DNA of 46,152 nt, taken from Chromera velia (lineage: Eukaryota). Each line of letters begins with the position of its first letter. Within the stretch, counting starts at the first letter, position 1. This document shows, piece after piece, positions 23,168 through 32,634 of this stretch. A program made the position numbers and the translations under genes. The notes beneath the pieces were generated by a model. The model was not told the DNA's origin. It saw only the letters and a program-made list of their open reading frames with translations, and searched no databases. The DNA is taken from assembly GCA_018398765.1 (NCBI GenBank), contig JAHBMJ010000526.1, positions 1 to 46,152 of the forward strand. Reading direction: 5' to 3'.

Positions 23168-23224
23168 GAATGGCCCCGGAAAGCGAAGCGGGGGGCTCAT
23201 TTTTCTTGCTTTCCGGGGCCGTTC
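23168..23224. repeat. GC-rich hairpin upstream of RPT3
   Basis: GGCCCCGGAAAGC (23172-23184) pairs with GCTTTCCGGGGCC (23208-23220), extendable by GAAT/GTTC. Confidence 0.8.
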
Positions 23225-24013
23225 GCAAGCTTGCTTGCGTCAGATGCATGGTGAAGAGATCAACGCGCATCTCGACTTTTGCACGCGGAATCGCGCAACA
23301 TTTGTGCATGCGCGGAGTGTATATTGTATATGTATATACAATATACGTATATTGGGCCGTGTCTTTGATTAATATATTAAATATATGTTTTAATTTAATA
23401 TAGATTGTTTACATGTAATATCAATTTATAGTAGCTTTTTTAGTACATTAGATGTCACCCTAAATTTATTTCCTTGCATGTAAGAGTCATTGAATTTATA
23501 AATTAGTTTAAGTGAGTTGAAGCATCGAATGAATGCGGGCTGAGATGCATTCAATCTAGCATTTATTCTAACATTCAATTAAAATTACAAATAAATTTGT
23601 GCTTTATTTCTGAAGTATAATGTAAAAAAAAATGAATATAATTTACTGCATTACTATGTTTCAAAATGACAAACGATACTAGTATTATCTTATTATATTG
23701 TATTATATACTCCTATATTCGTATTAAATTAAAGAATGCTAAATGAAAAAATAAAAATAAATGATTGCTTTATTGATTGTTTGAATGAATTGAAGATAAA
23801 TATTTTTTCGAGCAGACTCGGAGCAGTTACTCAAGCATACAAGGTCGAGATTCTATTTTTTTTCATAGTTTATCTCTTCCTCCTGCTTTATGCTTGCCAG
23901 CTATGGTGTACTCTCCTGAGCGTAGCTGGACACTCAGGACCTCCTGAACTCTTCACGAAGCTCAGAAGGTACAGTCCCAACCAGGTCCGACCAGATACCC
24001 TTTCTTCCGTTCT

Positions 24014-24788
24014 CTATTGCCCCCCCTGAGGAGGAGGCCCTCGGAAGGAACCAACGGCCGGTAGAGGGATCGCAATGGGAGGGGGTGGAGGTGCAGACAG
24101 CGGAGCCGTTCGAGGGGCGAGTGTGTGACCGGAGGCAGAGGGGAGGGCCCACTGCATTGCCCTTGGTGCAGGAAAGACCGAGATGGGGATCAAACGAGGG
24201 GCTCCTCTCTGGACAGCCTCCCGTTGTCGCCTTGCAGCCTCACGCTTGTGTGCTGCTGCTTCTCTCCTCTCTCTCACCTTCTCCTCGTCAACGAGTTGCT
24301 GCACAGCTGCAACCCAGACTCGGTTCTCTTTCCTCTCCTCAGCTTCTGCAGCCTCTTGTGCCTTCTTCTCCTTTCGTGCCTCAAAGCAGACCGTCCTGGC
24401 TGCCTCCAGGAACTTCCGCTTCTCTCCTCTCTCCTTGTCTGTCTCGGGCTGTCGTGTGACGGGCTCAACGACTGTCTGCCCCCAACGACGAACAGCGACC
24501 CAGAAGGCTCCCCAAAGGTTGTCATGGTGCCTGCGTCTCCACACGCACTCTTGAAGGCAGGTCCCGATTTTGGCGGCTGAGTATTTGTTGTTCGGGATGA
24601 ACCTTTTGAGACCTGCATACACTTATAGGATAAAAGCGGCAGGAGAGGGGCAAAAGAAACTATCAGATTGTTAGACTTGAGGGAGAGTGAGAGAAAGAAA
24701 AATGGAGTGTGTTTGTGTTAGAAGAGAAAGAGAGAAGGAGAGAGTCAAGGAGAAAGAAAGAGAGAAAGAGAGAAGGAGAGAGTCAAGG

Positions 24789-24836
<48 letters not shown>

Positions 24837-26037
24837 CATGTCGGAGGGAGATAAGTGTGGGGGCCTCTCGGCTTCTCCCTGCTCCTTACGGAAAGACCCG
24901 TGAGGTGCAGGTAAAAAAAGAGAGTTCTGAGGAAGTACACACACGGGGAGACGACTTACCATTCCAAGTGCCTTCGATGGTGTTGGTGTGGATGCCTGTA
25001 AGCGGATCAACGAAGTACTTTGAGTGGTTCACCCACCAGTGATCTGCAAAGATCTCCGCAGCTGGGCCGTTGTAGGCCTTCCAACAATCAGAGTACAAGA
25101 TGGACTCGGGGTGGATGTGTTTCTTCAAGACCTTGTAAAGCGTCTCCGCAGATCTGTCTGGAACAGGAACTGCAAAAAACCTCTTCTCCAAGGTTCTCTC
25201 AACTCCTCCGACGACCCACACACCCTCGACCCTGTGGCCTCGGTGGAACTTCCTCTTTCCAAACTTGGATTCGTCGACCTCCACGATAACATCCGGACCA
25301 CCGATTTTCTCAATCAGCTCTCCCTCTCCCAAAGGGCTAATTTCCCCTGTGTCGAGGTTCAGAATGTCTCTGAAAAGACGGATGCACCGAGACACTGTCT
25401 TGTCAGAGCCCTTCACCTTCGAGTGGATCGTGGAGTGCTTTTCGCCAAGAACGAAGAAGTAGGAGACGAGAACGAAAAACCCGTAGAGGAGCTTTGAGCC
25501 CGAGAAGAGCGTGCCCTTCCGCTCGGAAGTGCGTTTTCCTTCACGCACACACCCGGGCTTTCGGCACCTCCATGAATATTTTTTGTTTCCGTCAGGCCGC
25601 ATAGTGTGACTGCAACACTGATCCTGTGACCCCTTTGCGGGAGGCTGAGCTCCGTCGCAGGTTGCTTCAACGTCTCTCTCTGCAAATTTCTCTTCTGTCT
25701 CTTCATCATCATCGTCTCTCGTGCTCTCCGTGTCCGAAAAGTCGGCATCGGATTCAGCGAGGTCAGGCAGGGAGGCGGTGTCGTCGTCTGGGCTGCACAT
25801 TACCGTCTCTTGCAAAACTCTGTGTGGGGCAGACATCAGCCATCTCCTCACTCTTGCTTCGGCTTCGTCTCTCTCATTTTCTTTCTTCAGACGCTCCTTT
25901 CTCTCCTCCTCTGTTTCGGCTGGAGACTGCGGTGGAACCTTCTGACAAGCTTTCTGGGCGTCCAAAATTTCTGGATCGTACACAGCAGGCACACTGCCTG
26001 GAGGGAGAGCTGTCGCCATCAGGTGAGGCAAATGCAT
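24014..26037 (-). mobile_element. Merlin / IS1595 (ISXO2-like) DDE transposase gene, two exons, about 558 aa; element ends not found
   Basis: Exon 1 24960-26037 carries the Cys-rich ribbon (CCSHTM...WRCRKPGC...RKGTLF), KIGGPDVIVEVDESKFGKRKFHRGH..WVVGGVER, ILYSDCWKAY and VNHSKYFVDPLTGIHTNTIEGTWN. Intron 24613-24959 (GTAAGT...TGCAG) joins in frame as N-G-L-K-R to exon 2 24014-24612 (LQECVWRRRH). The D-D-E triad is intact. Confidence 0.93.
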
Positions 26038-26336
26038 AAATCGAAGTAAATCGTAGGAGACGAAGACTGATCATGAGGAGAATGCAAGTCTGTACAAGAC
26101 AAAGTTCCTTGTTCGATCAGAAACAGAAGTGTATATATCGGAATGCATGCATGCATATATATATATATATATGCAAAAAATTAATCAGTCAATTTCCTGC
26201 ATGGATGCATCGAATTGAGATGGAGGAGCTTGGCAGGGATGGCCATCCGGGGTGCTCGCGCGAGCGCGTTTGCCTCCTATTGTACGGATGGACCGACCAA
26301 CGATATGATTGTGAATCAAATGCATGGATCTTGCAG

Positions 26337-28121
26337 GTGCGGGGGTGAACTGCCAGGATAAGATGGGTGTGTCTCCGCTAATCAATGCGGCTGAGCATGG
26401 ACACGTCGATGCAGTTCAACTCCTCCTCTCCTTCTCGGCAGATCCTTCGCTTCGTTCAGCCAAGGGGGAGAGCGCAGTCACACTAGTCTAGCGGGTCGGT
26501 GTGGGCACTCCGACATCGTCGCGCTTCTCCAAGCAGCAATGTCCTCAGGGGGTACGTCCCCCTGTGGAGACGAGGGGGAGGAATTCAAAGAGAGCCAGAG
26601 TTCTAGAGCGGTTTCGGAAGGGGGCGCGACGGGGAGCGAGAGGAGGAAGACGGAGGCCCCTCCGACCGTTCTTGGAGAGCGAGGGATGAAGAAGCATGAG
26701 GGACACTGGGAAGCCAGACAGAGCGCCCAGTGGAGGCCAATTGCGCAGATGGGGCAGTCGTTCTCTGGCCGTTTCCAGTTCTCAAGATTCTTTTGTACCA
26801 CCAAAAACGCGTCCCTCGAAGACAGGACGTCTGTGCAACACTGCAACAACTTGGTATGACAGACGATCAGATACTGCAATTTCAGAATAGTGCACGTGCT
26901 ATTGCGTCTGCCGATTTTCCTCAGAGAGAGGGATTTTCGGTCGTCTGCTTGTCGTATGCCTGGCTTTCAAAGAACCACCCAGACCCCTCCCTCTTCCACC
27001 TGTCTCTCCTCGTCAGTGCAATTGAAAGTCACTGGTGGGCATACGGAGACCGTGCACACCGAGTGTTTGTCTTCTGGGACTTCCTCTCATTTAACCAGAG
27101 AGATCGAGGAGAACATTTGATGGTCGAAGAAGACGCAAACTCGACATACTTTGAAGCCGAGAAGGAAACAAAGCCTAGAATGCCGGGAGTCAGCGAAGAG
27201 GAAACAGCCTTCGCATCCCTTCTCACCGTTTCCTCGGCCCTCTCTGCCCCATCCTCCTCCAACCCCGCCATACTCCCACACGGCATGGTGGACAAAGGAG
27301 ACACGAGATAGACGCAGAAAGTCCCTCTGCCATTACACAAGATGGACACACTCTACAGCAGTGAGCACACACGCGTTTTCAGATCCACCGGAATTCCCCC
27401 GAATGCGCAAAATAACGTGCCCTTCTCCCAAAGAGGCTGGCCTGCGATGGAGACATTTGTCTCCGGATTCAAGCATCCGCGTCTTCTCCACCTCCTCCCA
27501 ACAGCCCCCGACTCGGACGCTCCCTATCCGGACATAAACCTACAGCCTGTCCGTGTCCCCGCGGCGCCCTCCGTTTTCGAGTCTGAGCTGGCCTCCAAGA
27601 AGTTCACCAACGGAGCCGATGAGACAGTAGTGCGGCAGCTGTATGCTCACTTTGTCTCCCGAACAGCTCCCCATATCCGCACGATTTCGTTTGTGGGGAG
27701 GCAGCAGTTTGGGGACAGAGAGGCTAGGACTCTCCACGGGCTGCTGCTCCATATGGAGAACAGCGGTCGCACGGTGGCGGTCGAGAGCGTCGACCTGACT
27801 GGCACGAGTGTGACAGATGAGAGCGTCAGTCTTCTCCTGAAGGCACTGCAACAAACAGCCCCGGGGTTGAAGCGTCTAGTCCTATTCTCGCTTCCCCTGG
27901 GAATGCAAACGCTCGAGACTCTGCGGGAGGGTATGGATAGAGGGTATTTTGCTGTTCTCAATTGGTTGGATCTCCACGACGGCACACAGGTCGACTCTTC
28001 GTGTCTCGACACGGTGTGTCACATTCTGAATGCCTCTCAGAAGAGAAAAGTCAAGCGTTTCTCTCTCGATCTACAAGGTTGTCCCGTCATCGCTCGGCCT
28101 GCACGGCCACCCGACCCCTAA
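26337..28121 (+). pseudogene. Ankyrin repeat - HET (TIR-like) domain - LRR gene with three lesions
   Basis: After an acceptor at 26336: AGVNCQDKMGVSPLINAAEHGHVDAVQLLLSFSADPSLRSAKGESAVTL [5-bp insertion] AGRCGHSDIVALL (ankyrin repeats, not in the ORF track). A second frameshift lies near 26700. Then CLSYAWLSKNHPDP...VFVFWDFLSFNQ, an in-frame TAG at 27309-27311, MDTLY...RGWPAME, KKFTNGAD and RI-like LRRs (VESVDLTGTSVTD, LKRLVLFS, LNWLDLHD) to TAA 28121. Confidence 0.75.
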
Positions 28122-28695: not shown

Positions 28696-29292
28696 GCTAC
28701 CACCTGTTCAGAAATTATTTTTTTTAAATTACTTTTTATTTTGAAAGTTGTTCAGAAAGGAGGCTATAAAAAAGTTAAATAGTCAGTTGTTGAATGCCGG
28801 GCCTATAAAATATGATTTACTCTGTATACAAAACCTTGCTAGTGGCTTGGGATTTGGCGTCGTTAAATCTAAGATTTAACCCTCAATCATTATCATCATC
28901 ATCATCATTGATCTAGAATAATCGATCGATCAAACACCCTATGCATGAATGCATGGATGAACGGACCACCCGAGCCTAACAGAGGCTAGGGGTTAAGTCT
29001 TCTATCTATCATCATCATCATCATCATACGAGTTGAGAAACTTTTGAATGACAAAAAACCCAGGAAAAAAAAATTTTTTTCTTTTAAAAAAAATTCTATG
29101 TTTTTTGAAAAACACAAATAAATATAGTATCTTATGAGTGTATGTATATACAATGAATAAGATACTTAAGTAAACACTCTGTGTGAGTTTATAGATTTAG
29201 TGTTTATTCATAAAGTATAAGCTTTGCATATACTCTTATTCAAGAGTTATAGTAGATGAAAGTGTGAAAATAATTTCTGAACAGGTGGTAGC
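28696..29292. mobile_element. MITE-like non-autonomous element with perfect 26-bp terminal inverted repeats, possibly Tc1/mariner-type with TA target duplication
   Basis: GCTACCACCTGTTCAGAAATTATTTT (28696-28721) is the exact reverse complement of AAAATAATTTCTGAACAGGTGGTAGC (29267-29292). The interior is AT-rich and non-coding, with a subterminal TGTTCAGAAA copy near 28749. Confidence 0.8.
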
Positions 29293-29526: not shown

Positions 29527-32500
29527 TTATTTTATGTTTTCACGTGCGGGCGGCTTCCCTACATATCTGTTACCGTTGCACATGTTTTCCTCCGACCACA
29601 TTGGTTGCAAATTTGAGAAGTGGAGACGGGAAATAAGAGTTTTGATGTCAGGTTTCTGACTCTCGGGCCCCCGATACTGAATAGGCACAATGTGGTCAAC
29701 ATGCCACAGGGTCCCGTAATTCTCCCACGACATTCCGGGGTTGCCGTGGAAATCGTCTTTCTCGAGGTGGGCTTTGAGATCGGGGAACGAACAACCGAGG
29801 TACTCGTGGGAGCGTCTTCGGGGGGAATGACCACGCTCTCCTTTTCGAATGGATGTGAGGCATGCCCACACGGTTGATCGTGTGACATGAGTCAGGCGGA
29901 AGAGGGGATCTTCCCGGTACCGAGTCTTTCGCGCATCGTTCTGTCGCTGCCTGAATACTGCAAAAGCGGGGTTGCCTTTCTGACACTCTGCACACCTCCT
30001 TCTGCATTTTCCGTGTTCACATATTCCACTTCCTTGACATTCACGACAGTCGCTGCGATGACGGCCGTGCTCGCAAATGCCAGATCCCCCACATTCGCGA
30101 CAATAATATCGCTGGCGTCCGTGGACACAGACAGAACCGCCTCCACATTCTACGCACACAGTGCGCCTTCGCCCGTGAGGACAAATTTGCGAACCTCCAC
30201 ACTCTTTGCAGGTCCCTCGCACACGGTCGTGTTCGCAGATCTGTGAACCCCTACACGTCTTATACAACCTCCGAATGCGACCGTGTTCACAGATCTGCGA
30301 CCCCCCACACTCTCTGCATGTTGACCGAATGCGACGATGCTCGCAAATCTGTGACCCCTTGTACTCTCTGCACGTCGATCGAATGCGACCATGGTCGCAG
30401 ATTTGGGATCCTCCGCATTCCTTACACACCCTGCGAATCCTCCCATGCTCACAAATACCCTTCCCACCGCATTCTTTGCAATCGTACCGCTTCCTTCCGT
30501 GCGGACACTGGGATCGCAGCGATGCCGGTAGCAGGTGATCGTGGGTAGCATGGAGGAGAGGTTTGTTTTTTGCTTTTTCTATGTTGCTCGCGCTCAGAAC
30601 GAGCCATGGTTGCTCAGCTGTCGGCATCCCATCCCTCCGCACAGACCCATGCTCAGGGGTAGCAGAGTCTAGCAGTTGACTTCCACTGACAGAACGGGGA
30701 GAGTCGGGGACGGAACGTGACTTGATTTGGGTTGCACTTGTGAATCGTTCAAAGAAATCCTCCCCTCTTCCTACTTTGAAATTCTCGGAAGTGCCCTCTC
30801 CTGTCGGTTGGATTTCAGTACTAAAAGAAAGAAGACGGCTCTTCAACCTCGTGAGAGATACAAAATGTACTTGCAAAAATCGGACGCCCCTTGTCGGAGC
30901 TGAAAGAGGGGGAGTCAGGGGCATGCTCTGCTGCTGCTGCTGCTTGGGAATGCTACTTGGATGTTTGCTGTTGATTGATTGGAAGGAGACTGCTGCCTTC
31001 GGCAGCTGCTGTGCTGATGCTTTACCGACATATCTGTTACCCTTACGCATGTTTTCCTCCGACCACATCGGTTGCAAATTTGAGAAGTGGAGACGGGAAA
31101 TAAGAGTTTTGATGTCAGGTTTCTGACCCTCGGGCCCCCGATACTGAATAGGCACAATGTGGTCAACATGCCACAGGGTCCCGTAATTCTTCCACGATAT
31201 TCCGGGGTTACCGTGGAAATCGTCTTTCTCGAGGTGGGCTTTGAGATCGGGGAACGAACAACCGAGGTACTCGTGGGATTAGTTTTTGACAATCGGGAAT
31301 CTGCCTTCCCGAAGAGCTCTGAGGCATCTCCAAACAGCGCACCTCATTGCTTGAGCGAGTCGGTATATTGGATCTTCTTTGTACCTCAACCGTCGCCTCT
31401 CAACCCTCTTTGCAAAAACAGGATTGTCTTTCTGACATTCTGCACAGCTAGTTCTCACGCGTCCATGTTTGCAAATACTCCCCCCCCCACAGTCTCTGCA
31501 TTTGGATCGTATACGGCCGTGTTCACAGATCCCCCTACCTCCACACTCTCTGCATTCGTAGCGACGACGGCCATGTTGACAGATAGCATTTCCACCGCAG
31601 TCCACGCAGGAATATTTGATGCGTCCGTGAATGCAAATGGAACTGCCCCCACACTCTTTACACTGATCTCGCCTCCGACCATGCTCACAAATTCCTTTCC
31701 CTCCGCAATCTTTGCAGAGAGCGCGCTGTCGACCATGTTCACAGATCCCCCTGCCCCCGCATTCTTTACAATGAGCGCGGTGGCGTCCGTGCTCGCAGAT
31801 CCCCTTCCCACCGCAATCTTTGCAGTGGTACCTTTGTCTGCCATGTGAACAGATTGATCTTCCACCACATTCTATGCACTGCTCACGTCTGCGTCCATGT
31901 CCACAGATTTCTCCCCCACCGCAATCTTTGCATCGACTGCGCAGCCGGCCATGTTGACAGATCGATTTGCCACCGCATTCCTTGCAGAGATGCTTTCGTC
32001 TTCCATGTGGACAAAGGGTCCTCTCTTGCTTGCCTAATTTAGACTGGAGCGTCACTTTTTCTTTTTTGTGTCCCTCACAGTTCCTACCATCCGCAGCCGT
32101 TTCCTCTTCATCAACCATCGGCATGTGGGAGCTCTCTACAGGCGTGGCTTCGCCCAGACCTGTCCCCGCTCCATCGTTGGCAGGCTCACTTCTTTCATGT
32201 CCATAGTCAGAAACTACACTACGGAGCCATCTACGGTGGTGCAGGGTTGGGTGATCAGTTTCGGGACGCCGGACAAAGCGGTCGCCTTTCATTTCAGAAG
32301 CTTGCTGGGAACAGACAAGCAATGATTGACTCAGACAAAGGCTTCCAGGGCGGCAAAGAACAGAACGATTGCCTTTGTTCCTATGAGCTCCCTCCGTCGA
32401 AATATGCATTGAAAGATCAACCTTCAAAATGCTTTGGTTCAGACCGTGAGAAAAAGGAGTCTCAGCATTCAAACGAAGCTTTCTGGGCTCCTTGCTCCGT

Positions 32501-32634
32501 GTGTCGTTCATGATAGACGGCTTCCTGTGATGGTCTGAAGGGAGAACAGAGGTTCCGTGGAGAATTGACGCTGTTGCGCAACGAAGGCAACGGTGCGAAG
32601 CACGACGAGAGAAGGTTGCAGCAATGCCTTGCAT
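29527..32634 (-). CDS. Intronless tandem [CHCC zinc-finger repeat array + HNH-like endonuclease] x2; one reading frame interrupted by a single TAA at 31279-31281 (possible pseudogene)
   Basis: ORFs 31279..32634 and 29527..31155 share a frame; the 123 bp between them read SHEYLGCSFPDLKAHLEK...WHVDHI. Each module is an array of 18-aa CxHGRxRxxCxxCGGxxI repeats, a basic helix (YKEDPIYRL / YREDPLFRL), then YLGCS...LKAHLE...G[MI]SW[EK]NYG.WHVDHIVP...HFSNLQPMWSEEN..GNR, a motif I recognise from phage and giant-virus HNH-type nucleases. The true start codon is uncertain. Confidence 0.85.
29983..30507 (-). repeat. Zinc-finger array B: 10 x 54-bp coding repeats
   Basis: Runs from CPHGRKRYDCKECGGKGI to CEHGKCRRRCAEC; two repeats carry Cys-to-Tyr changes. 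Confidence 0.95.
31435..32013 (-). repeat. Zinc-finger array A: 11 x 54-bp coding repeats
   Basis: Runs from CPHGRRKHLCKECGGKSI to CKHGRVRTSCAEC; period 18 aa. Confidence 0.95.

What the first reader, a model, noticed from the sequence alone, without database searches (positions are those of the whole stretch)
29527..32634. Candidate natural modular zinc-finger nuclease: 18-aa CHCC repeat arrays with hypervariable positions fused to an HNH-like domain
Seen: two arrays (11 and 10 repeats) of C-x-H-G-R-[x]-R-[x]-[x]-C-x-x-C-G-G-x-x-I, each followed by a basic helix and a WHVDH...HFSNLQPMW..EN domain. The scaffold is largely fixed, while the five residues after HG vary per repeat (A: RRKHL, RLRSR, RRREQ, RQRYH, RHRAH, RQRAL, RRRDQ, RIKYS, RRRYE, RIRSK, RVRTS; B: RKRYD, RIRRV, RIRST, RIRST, RIRRL, RVRGT, RRRTV, RQRYY, RHRSD, KCRRR). 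Known: the DH...N motif fits beta-beta-alpha-metal (HNH) nucleases of phages and giant viruses, and TALE, PPR and C2H2 arrays encode specificity in a few variable residues. Inference: a repeat-coded nucleic-acid reader coupled to a nuclease, acting as a selfish homing-like element or an antiviral/anti-transposon effector, probably virus-derived because it is intronless in an intron-dense genome.
Basis: partly seen in the sequence, partly recalled or inferred. Interest (0 to 1): 0.88.

Follow-up and report, generated by a model that had tools for sequence, protein, structure and literature searches.

The report
Virus-derived zinc-repeat nuclease in an alga
This is a damaged double copy of a gene family, likely taken up by an alga from viruses, that joins strings of tiny predicted zinc-binding repeats to a likely DNA-cutting domain; in one set of viral relatives each repeat appears to read two DNA letters, which would make the family a compact natural counterpart of engineered zinc-finger nucleases, though no binding or cutting has been measured.

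Summary
The two arrays (11 and 10 repeats of 18 aa) and two HNH-type domains are real. Corrections: only positions 6, 8 and 9 vary (5 and 7 are fixed R/K), an in-frame TAA separates array A from its nuclease, and array B has lost two cysteines. The closest relatives are Chromera velia paralogues; their HNH domains form one clade nested among array-bearing viral/metagenomic HNH genes. The repeat is a large unnamed family (2,846 clusters at E<=1e-10; no Pfam or PDB match) fused to HNH, PD-(D/E)XK or no nuclease. In viruses the genes are optional insertions beside core genes, positions 6 and 9 show dN/dS above 1, and near-identical nucleases carry unrelated arrays. In 26 capsid-adjacent PD-type genes the array fits the capsid start at 2 bp per repeat, antiparallel (R:G, Q:A, Y:T; p 0.017-0.057 without a chemical prior). 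That code found no target for 111 other arrays, three other capsid-adjacent groups, or this window. Best reading: a virus-derived, homing-like nuclease family amplified in the alga; this copy is decaying. The scan noted the viral family at least eight times before; the algal capture and HNH form are what this window adds.

The parts
31279..32634 (-). Frame A from the first ATG: about 207 aa low-complexity leader, array A, basic helix, then TAA
   Evidence: start codon inferred, no RNA data
31420..32013 (-). Array A: 11 intact 18-aa C-x-H-x6-C-x2-C repeats; variable positions 6, 8, 9
   Evidence: AlphaFold2 pLDDT 93; no PDB match
31282..31419 (-). Basic helical linker A
   Evidence: helices predicted in the homologous part of module B
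31279..31281 (-). In-frame TAA between helix A and HNH A
   Evidence: one X1 contig agrees, not independently confirmed
31011..31278 (-). HNH (beta-beta-alpha-metal) domain A, D-H...N...N intact
30508..31010 (-). Open 168-codon linker without homologues at 90% in the runs (depth near single copy)
29968..30507 (-). Array B: 10 repeats, two with a lost cysteine
29812..29967 (-). Basic helical linker B
29527..29811 (-). HNH domain B and stop; D-H...N...N intact, one conserved K changed to N

Best explanation
The locus is a damaged head-to-tail pair of copies of a likely virus-derived, homing-like endonuclease gene that has multiplied in this alga (most likely Chromera velia), in which a string of 18-aa predicted zinc-binding repeats would aim a C-terminal HNH domain at DNA. 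Shown: the anatomy, the many paralogues, the nesting among viral genes, optional insertion and fast change of positions 6 and 9 in viral relatives. Inferred: each repeat binds one zinc (CxH...CxxC); the array tracks DNA antiparallel at about 2 bp per repeat, positions 6 and 9 reading one strand and position 8 the partner of the base read by position 9 of the previous repeat; the helix and HNH domain nick or cut just beyond the C-terminal end of the array; repair from the gene-bearing copy spreads the gene; unequal crossing-over and point change retarget it. In the alga the family likely turns over by birth and death; here module A makes at most a nuclease-less array and module B a partly decayed enzyme.
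For: Top 120 homologues: by motif 80 PD-(D/E)XK tails, 26 HNH, 14 other; 166 array ORFs in viral loci: 63 PD, 42 HNH, 33 short, 28 other tails including two further His-Me-like types. D-H, N, N invariant in 31 of 31 aligned HNH domains; PHROG 1035 E 3.8e-8; BFVD matches include HNH and an intron-encoded endonuclease. Tree of 101 HNH domains: 16 Chromera rows one clade (100) inside a 97% group with 30 array-bearing rows and none of 45 array-less rows (quick tree, 94 columns). Optional insertion: next to a DUF5824 gene, 13 of 76 related loci join the two flanking genes directly, 2 of 76 carry another array-HNH there, others carry other genes; 40 different arrays share one leader and nuclease type. 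Held-out dN/dS in 226-424 within-array pairs: position 6 1.5-2.9, 9 2.0-4.0, 8 0.8-1.9, Cys/His 0. Capsid-adjacent group: score 10.0 vs 3.3+-1.2, 0 of 400 shuffles (weights set after viewing); prior-free search ranks that register first of 102,904 and returns R:G, Q:A, Y:T. Position 9 to next position 8 couples as R-E, D-R, I-N. In the alga 5 of 5 frequent paralogue variants in HNH B are synonymous and HNH A vs B has pN 0.035, pS 0.145.
Against: No target was found for arrays A or B in the window (p 0.13-0.79). The code gave no excess within 500 bp of own genes for 32 prasinovirus-like HNH, 23 other HNH and 56 PD/other arrays, nor for three other capsid-adjacent groups; unsupervised code searches gave nothing or codon artefacts. 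The one positive set is PD-type, not HNH, is one inherited lineage, needs a 1-bp slip, and reaches only p 0.017 or 0.057 prior-free. HNH fold scores are low (Z 3.2 at best) and Pfam does not recognise the domain in the window. 100 of the 126 new representatives have no recognised nuclease tail, so the array often works without one. No empty allele or mobility could be tested in the alga (no genome held).
Confidence: 0.6

Rival explanations
1. The family has been domesticated by the alga as a defence arsenal: many arrays with different specificities cut invading viral or transposon DNA, like a protein-coded immune repertoire.
For: Many paralogues with different arrays and a conserved nuclease; viral origin; transposons are abundant in Chromera (PMC4501334, passage).
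Against: This copy has a stop and lost cysteines; several Chromera gene models read the arrays in shifted frames, which suggests broken copies; no match of predicted sites to nearby mobile DNA.
Confidence: 0.13
2. The arrays grip DNA with little sequence preference, and the variable positions are surface residues under relaxed constraint or protein-level arms races; specificity, if any, comes from the helix and nuclease, as in I-Bth0305I.
For: All held-out code tests were negative; in I-Bth0305I the N-terminal repeats make largely nonspecific contacts (PMC3239194 section 19); part of the 9-to-6 coupling (R/K to E/D) could be salt bridges.
Against: dN/dS above 1 at positions 6 and 9; ordered conservation of residues in 26 capsid-adjacent genes matching invariant bases, with variable residues on wobble bases.
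Confidence: 0.15
3. In the alga the copies are passive relics or nuclease-less DNA-binding regulators, multiplied by tandem duplication or transposons, with no cutting role left.
For: Stop before HNH A; many Chromera and other eukaryotic array proteins end right after the array; 7 of 14 Chromera HNH proteins hold two HNH domains, as tandem duplication would give; a Merlin-type transposase and a TIR element lie nearby.
Against: Synonymous-only frequent variants and pN/pS about 0.24 in the HNH domain indicate selection on the nuclease at least until recently.
Confidence: 0.12

Closest known systems
Modular HNH homing endonucleases of phages (I-HmuI type; free-standing forms)
   Same: HNH core joined to a separate DNA-binding region; optional gene beside a conserved gene (shown for viral relatives); long asymmetric site expected (PMC3239194 section 19; free-standing T4 examples recalled).
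   Different: Here the binding region is N-terminal and is a homogeneous array of 4-17 repeats with three hypervariable positions; no intron or intein; present as an expanded family in a eukaryotic nucleus.
I-Bth0305I / EDxHD (Vsr-like) homing endonucleases
   Same: N-terminal DNA-binding repeats and C-terminal nuclease (abstract and section 19 read); the PD-type sisters of this family have a similar plan (lead from earlier findings; not confirmed by my PDB profile search).
   Different: The window's nuclease is HNH; I-Bth0305I uses two NUMOD elements with largely nonspecific contacts.
C2H2 zinc-finger arrays (PRDM9, KRAB-ZFPs) and engineered zinc-finger nucleases
   Same: Tandem zinc modules, a few contact residues under diversifying selection, likely antiparallel reading with a cross-strand contact from the next module (C2H2 facts recalled).
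   Different: 18 rather than 28 aa, CHCC rather than C2H2 ligands, no recognition helix in the model (only a 3-residue turn), about 2 rather than 3 bp per module, and a natural nuclease fusion.
TALE repeats / TALENs
   Same: Near-identical repeats with focal variable residues.
   Different: Zinc knuckle rather than 34-aa helical hairpin; no sequence or fold match; TALE facts recalled.
EsV-1-7 cysteine-rich repeats (PF19114) and MIGE elements of giant viruses
   Same: Cysteine-rich or zinc-finger genes of giant viruses, multi-copy and mobile (MIGE: 10.1101/299784, passage); EsV-1-7 name recalled.
   Different: No PF19114 hit; different spacing; MIGE membership not tested.

Membership tests
HNH / beta-beta-alpha-metal nucleases | D-H general-base motif, structural Asn and metal-binding Asn/His on the helix | tested here: met
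   D72 H73 N100 N109 invariant in 31 of 31 rows; present in both window copies
HNH / beta-beta-alpha-metal nucleases | Profile match to a known HNH family | tested here: met
   PHROG 1035 endonuclease VII E 3.8e-8; Pfam HNH hits only 1 of 31 rows at E 0.0098 and not the window; NCBIfam none
HNH / beta-beta-alpha-metal nucleases | Fold matches solved HNH structures | tested here: inconclusive
   7 top rows are HNH-type proteins but Z 2.9-3.2, rmsd 3.5-5.9; Foldseek PDB no E<=0.001; BFVD HNH models E about 4e-5; domain not folded alone
HNH / beta-beta-alpha-metal nucleases | Metal-dependent DNA cleavage | not testable with these tools
   needs assay
Free-standing homing endonucleases | Optional gene with empty cognate alleles (viral relatives) | tested here: met
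   13 of 76 loci empty, 2 of 76 with another array-HNH at the DUF5824 site
Free-standing homing endonucleases | Target lies beside the insertion site | tested here: inconclusive
   Fit for one PD-type capsid-adjacent group; none for 55 HNH-type arrays within 500 bp or this window
Free-standing homing endonucleases | Empty allele and homing for this algal locus | not testable with these tools
   no genome held
C2H2 zinc-finger arrays | C-x2-4-C-x12-H-x3-5-H spacing and recognition helix | tested here: not met
   C-x-H-x6-C-x2-C, 18-aa period; no helix of 4 or more residues within the repeats; no Pfam hit
TALE repeats | 33-35-aa helical hairpin repeats with a di-residue at 12-13 | tested here: not met
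EDxHD / Vsr-like homing endonucleases | PD-(D/E)XK-type catalytic domain | tested here: not met
   window tails are HNH; the PD motif occurs only in sister proteins
EsV-1-7 repeat (PF19114) | Pfam profile match | tested here: not met
   0 hits at E<=0.1
MIGE | Conserved non-coding segment plus zinc-finger ORF, dispersed copies | not tested
   only the description was read

The most novel reading that the evidence does not exclude
The 18-aa CHCC repeat is a new programmable DNA-reading fold, the smallest known (2 bp per 18 aa, residues 6 and 9 plus a cross-strand residue 8), used by giant viruses and Polinton-like viruses as natural zinc-finger nucleases with swappable cutters, and captured by Chromera and other algae, where it grew into nuclease-bearing and nuclease-free families comparable to KRAB zinc fingers.
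Probability: 0.4. Interest if true: 0.9.

Novelty: new variant of a known kind. Interest (0 to 1): 0.72.

Why it matters
If the repeats carry a code, they are a DNA reader that needs about 9 aa per base pair with no solved relative, already fused in nature to at least two nuclease folds: useful for compact genome-editing tools and a direct handle on thousands of unnamed viral and algal genes. The algal expansion would be a case of a viral selfish nuclease invading a eukaryotic nucleus and seeding a new family of DNA-binding proteins. The capsid-adjacent genes give a concrete protein-site pair that can be tested in one experiment.

Tried and rejected
No whole genome held. No RNA holder listed. 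The second read-laying run did not complete, so the TAA and a fuller paralogue variant table stay unconfirmed. PDB by sequence: nothing for the module, a LIM protein at E 0.19 for PD-type arrays, a designed repeat and weak hits for the HNH alignment. Array alone: 0 Foldseek PDB matches and 0 of 48,161 chains at Z>=2; this shows neither novelty nor difference of fold. Code searches that failed: fixed C2H2-like prior over 98 arrays and 96 geometries (best excess 21 was the 9-to-6 coupling), EM over own flanks (learned codon periodicity; first swap control was faulty because 76 loci fell in one cluster), EM for 40 same-leader arrays (collapsed; no peak), own versus swapped flanks for 132 and 130 arrays (no clear excess; 11 vs 6.2 expected for the parallel direction in 80 arrays), a naive register score that favoured homopolymers. 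The parallel direction fits capsid group I less well (5.8 vs 10.0) but fits group II's first six repeats at the start codon (p 0.17-0.19), so direction rests on one group. An endogenous virus around the gene was considered: 14 long ORFs scanned gave kinase, LUC7, MsrA and no viral family. Literature: ten full-text searches (listings only) returned no description of this repeat; the Chromera genome paper has 0 hits for zinc or HNH in its main text; supplements were not read and may list the family. Rows dropped: 5 array-less rows from the tree; arrays with irregular spacing or without the shared core from group I (52 found, 29 then 26-27 kept).

Full report
Observation. The minus-strand frame 32640-29527 has 1,038 codons with one internal TAA at 31281-31279. 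Array A is intact; array B has lost a cysteine in repeats 3 and 5. The two HNH regions are 94% identical in DNA while the arrays differ. Across 1,157 homologous repeats the entropy is highest at positions 9, 6, 8 and 17 (3.8, 3.3, 2.7, 2.6 bits), and positions 5 and 7 are almost always R or K, so three, not five, of the residues after HG vary.

Source and family. The best protein matches are Chromera velia paralogues at 58-79% identity, so the window is most likely Chromera (inference). 4,469 of 5,565 candidates match the module; array A matches 5,369 clusters at 50% identity at E<=0.001 and 2,846 at 1e-10. ESM Atlas neighbours are viral clusters, mostly Nucleocytoviricota, without a common Pfam family; for the array alone the nearest cluster is 79% eukaryotic, with low recognition. 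Pfam and NCBIfam do not name the repeat. Of the top 120 homologues 80 have a PD-(D/E)XK-like tail, 26 an HNH tail and 14 neither by motif. Of 166 array ORFs in viral loci 63 are PD, 42 HNH, 33 end shortly after the array and 28 have other tails, some of them further His-Me-like domains. In Chromera the array also occurs without nuclease, often in proteins labelled CBM20.

The nuclease. PHROG 1035 (endonuclease VII) matches at E 3.8e-8. D-H, N and N are invariant in 31 of 31 aligned domains. The module model has pLDDT 81.6; its top structural rows are HNH-type proteins (retron Ec83, BrxU, Cap5, GVE2 HNH, Cas9 HNH) but at Z 2.9-3.2 only, and predicted viral HNH proteins match at E about 4e-5. 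The array model (pLDDT 93) shows one beta-bridge and a three-residue turn per repeat, holding positions 6-9, and has no PDB match. Zinc binding is inferred from the C-H-C-C pattern.

Origin and fate in the alga. In a quick tree of 101 HNH domains (94 columns; 5 array-less rows dropped) the 16 Chromera rows are one clade (100) inside a 97% group with 30 array-bearing viral or metagenomic rows and no array-less row: one capture, then expansion; the donor is not resolved. Such genes sit in giant viruses next to capsid or YqaJ genes and in a small genome with an A32 ATPase. In two public runs the HNH B bin has summed depth 855 and 1,418 against about 15 and 31 in unique flanks, and 27-28 contigs share one variant (the tool warns this is no copy number, and X1 may be the source). 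All 5 frequent variants are synonymous; HNH A against B has pN 0.035, pS 0.145. Seven of 14 Chromera HNH proteins hold two HNH domains and several read the arrays out of frame, which fits tandem amplification with birth and death. None of 14 other long ORFs scanned is viral.

Behaviour in viruses. Beside a DUF5824 gene in prasinovirus-like contigs the array-HNH gene is an insertion at the stop codon: 13 of 76 related loci join the flanking genes directly, 2 carry a different array-HNH there, and the rest carry other genes or end too soon. Forty different arrays share this leader and nuclease type. Nucleases 93-97% identical carry unrelated or much changed arrays (L239/L208, L368/L252, L243/L182). 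Choosing repeat pairs on one set of synonymous sites and measuring on another, dN/dS is 1.5-2.9 at position 6, 2.0-4.0 at 9, 0.8-1.9 at 8, 0.7-2.0 at 17 and at most 1.0 elsewhere (226-424 pairs, not independent; codon bias may lower dS). In the window itself synonymous sites are saturated (pS 0.83-0.88), so this could not be measured here.

Is there a code? My unsupervised searches failed. Fifty-two arrays lie head-to-head with a capsid gene, in four groups. In group I the residue order is conserved and fits the capsid start ATG ACN GGN GGN GGN YTN AT when the array runs 3' to 5' along the sense strand, two bases per repeat (position 6 then 9), with one 1-base slip: all seven invariant arginines fall on G, both invariant glutamines on A, and three of four hypervariable residues on wobble bases. 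With chemical weights set after viewing, the score is 10.0 against 3.3+-1.2 (0 of 400 shuffles, 22 loci). Without any prior this register ranks first of 102,904, p 0.017 or 0.057 by score, and itself returns R:G, Q:A, Y:T (26 loci). Over 281 arrays, position 9 couples to the next repeat's position 6 (z 9.2) and 8 (R-E 22 vs 8.4, D-R 8 vs 2.3, I-N 21 vs 14), as partners of one base pair would. The geometry puts the nuclease just upstream of the ATG, towards the inserted gene, where alleles differ most. Against this: groups II-IV gave no significant site, 111 other arrays, 55 of them HNH-type, gave no excess within 500 bp, and arrays A and B have no distinguished site in the window. Their targets may lie further away or in other genomes, or the code may be narrower than it looks.

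Mechanism, rivals and what is known. Most likely the family works like a modular free-standing homing endonuclease whose array selects the site (0.6); rivals are weakly specific binding (0.15), domesticated defence (0.13) and passive or regulatory relics (0.12). Closest known are I-HmuI-type HNH enzymes and I-Bth0305I (PMC3239194, abstract and section 19 read), where the N-terminal repeats are largely nonspecific. Giant viruses are known to carry many homing and HNH endonucleases (10.1101/299784 and PMC13620141, passages). Ten full-text searches (listings only) showed no description of this repeat; PMC4501334 has no hit for zinc or HNH in its main text; supplements were not read. The scan has noted the viral family at least eight times; these notes are not independent evidence. 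Verdict: real, unnamed and testable; a new variant of modular homing nuclease; this particular copy is damaged. Interest 0.72.

Noticed in passing
window 28696-29292: A 597-bp element with perfect 26-bp terminal inverted repeats, 235 bp past the gene's stop; very high summed depth in its bin. Likely a MITE.
   Followed up: no
window 24886-26070 (-): ISXO2/IS1595-type (Merlin-like) DDE transposase, Pfam E 3.2e-11, in a stretch of about 23360-26140 with three- to six-fold depth.
   Followed up: partly
window 23170-23250: Short hairpin-forming sequence with extremely high summed depth (bin mean 7,994 and 11,822) and many different loose ends: a very abundant short repeat or element end.
   Followed up: no
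window 26300-28121 (+): Intron-poor gene pieces with an ankyrin-like start and a leucine-rich-like end, broken by a stop at 27309-27311; no Pfam hit.
   Followed up: no
L295-L374, end of the DUF5824 gene: Insertion hotspot in prasinovirus-like genomes: many unrelated genes start right at the stop codon, and some loci repeat the gene's 3' end after the first insert (L314, L318, L335, L356, L357, L362), like stacked cassettes.
   Followed up: partly
P0155, P0166, P0171, P0180, P0184, P0190, P0193, P0195 and others: A second Chromera family with the same arrays at the C-terminus, no nuclease, and a CBM20 label; also AP2, ankyrin, SET, OTU and Myb labels on array proteins of other eukaryotes.
   Followed up: partly
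L221 about 430-450 bp past the array gene: A second site that fits this gene's own array as well as the capsid start does; possibly a decayed copy of the target.
   Followed up: no
L001/L002: The contig holds a long inverted duplication centred between two array-HNH copies; a hairpin-ended small virus with an A32 ATPase or an assembly artefact.
   Followed up: no
L567: A capsid-adjacent array gene in a genome record titled as a Bacteroides MAG; likely a misbinned viral contig.
   Followed up: no
L098, L014, L138: Arrays built from repeated blocks of 3-7 repeats, a sign of recent unequal crossing-over.
   Followed up: no
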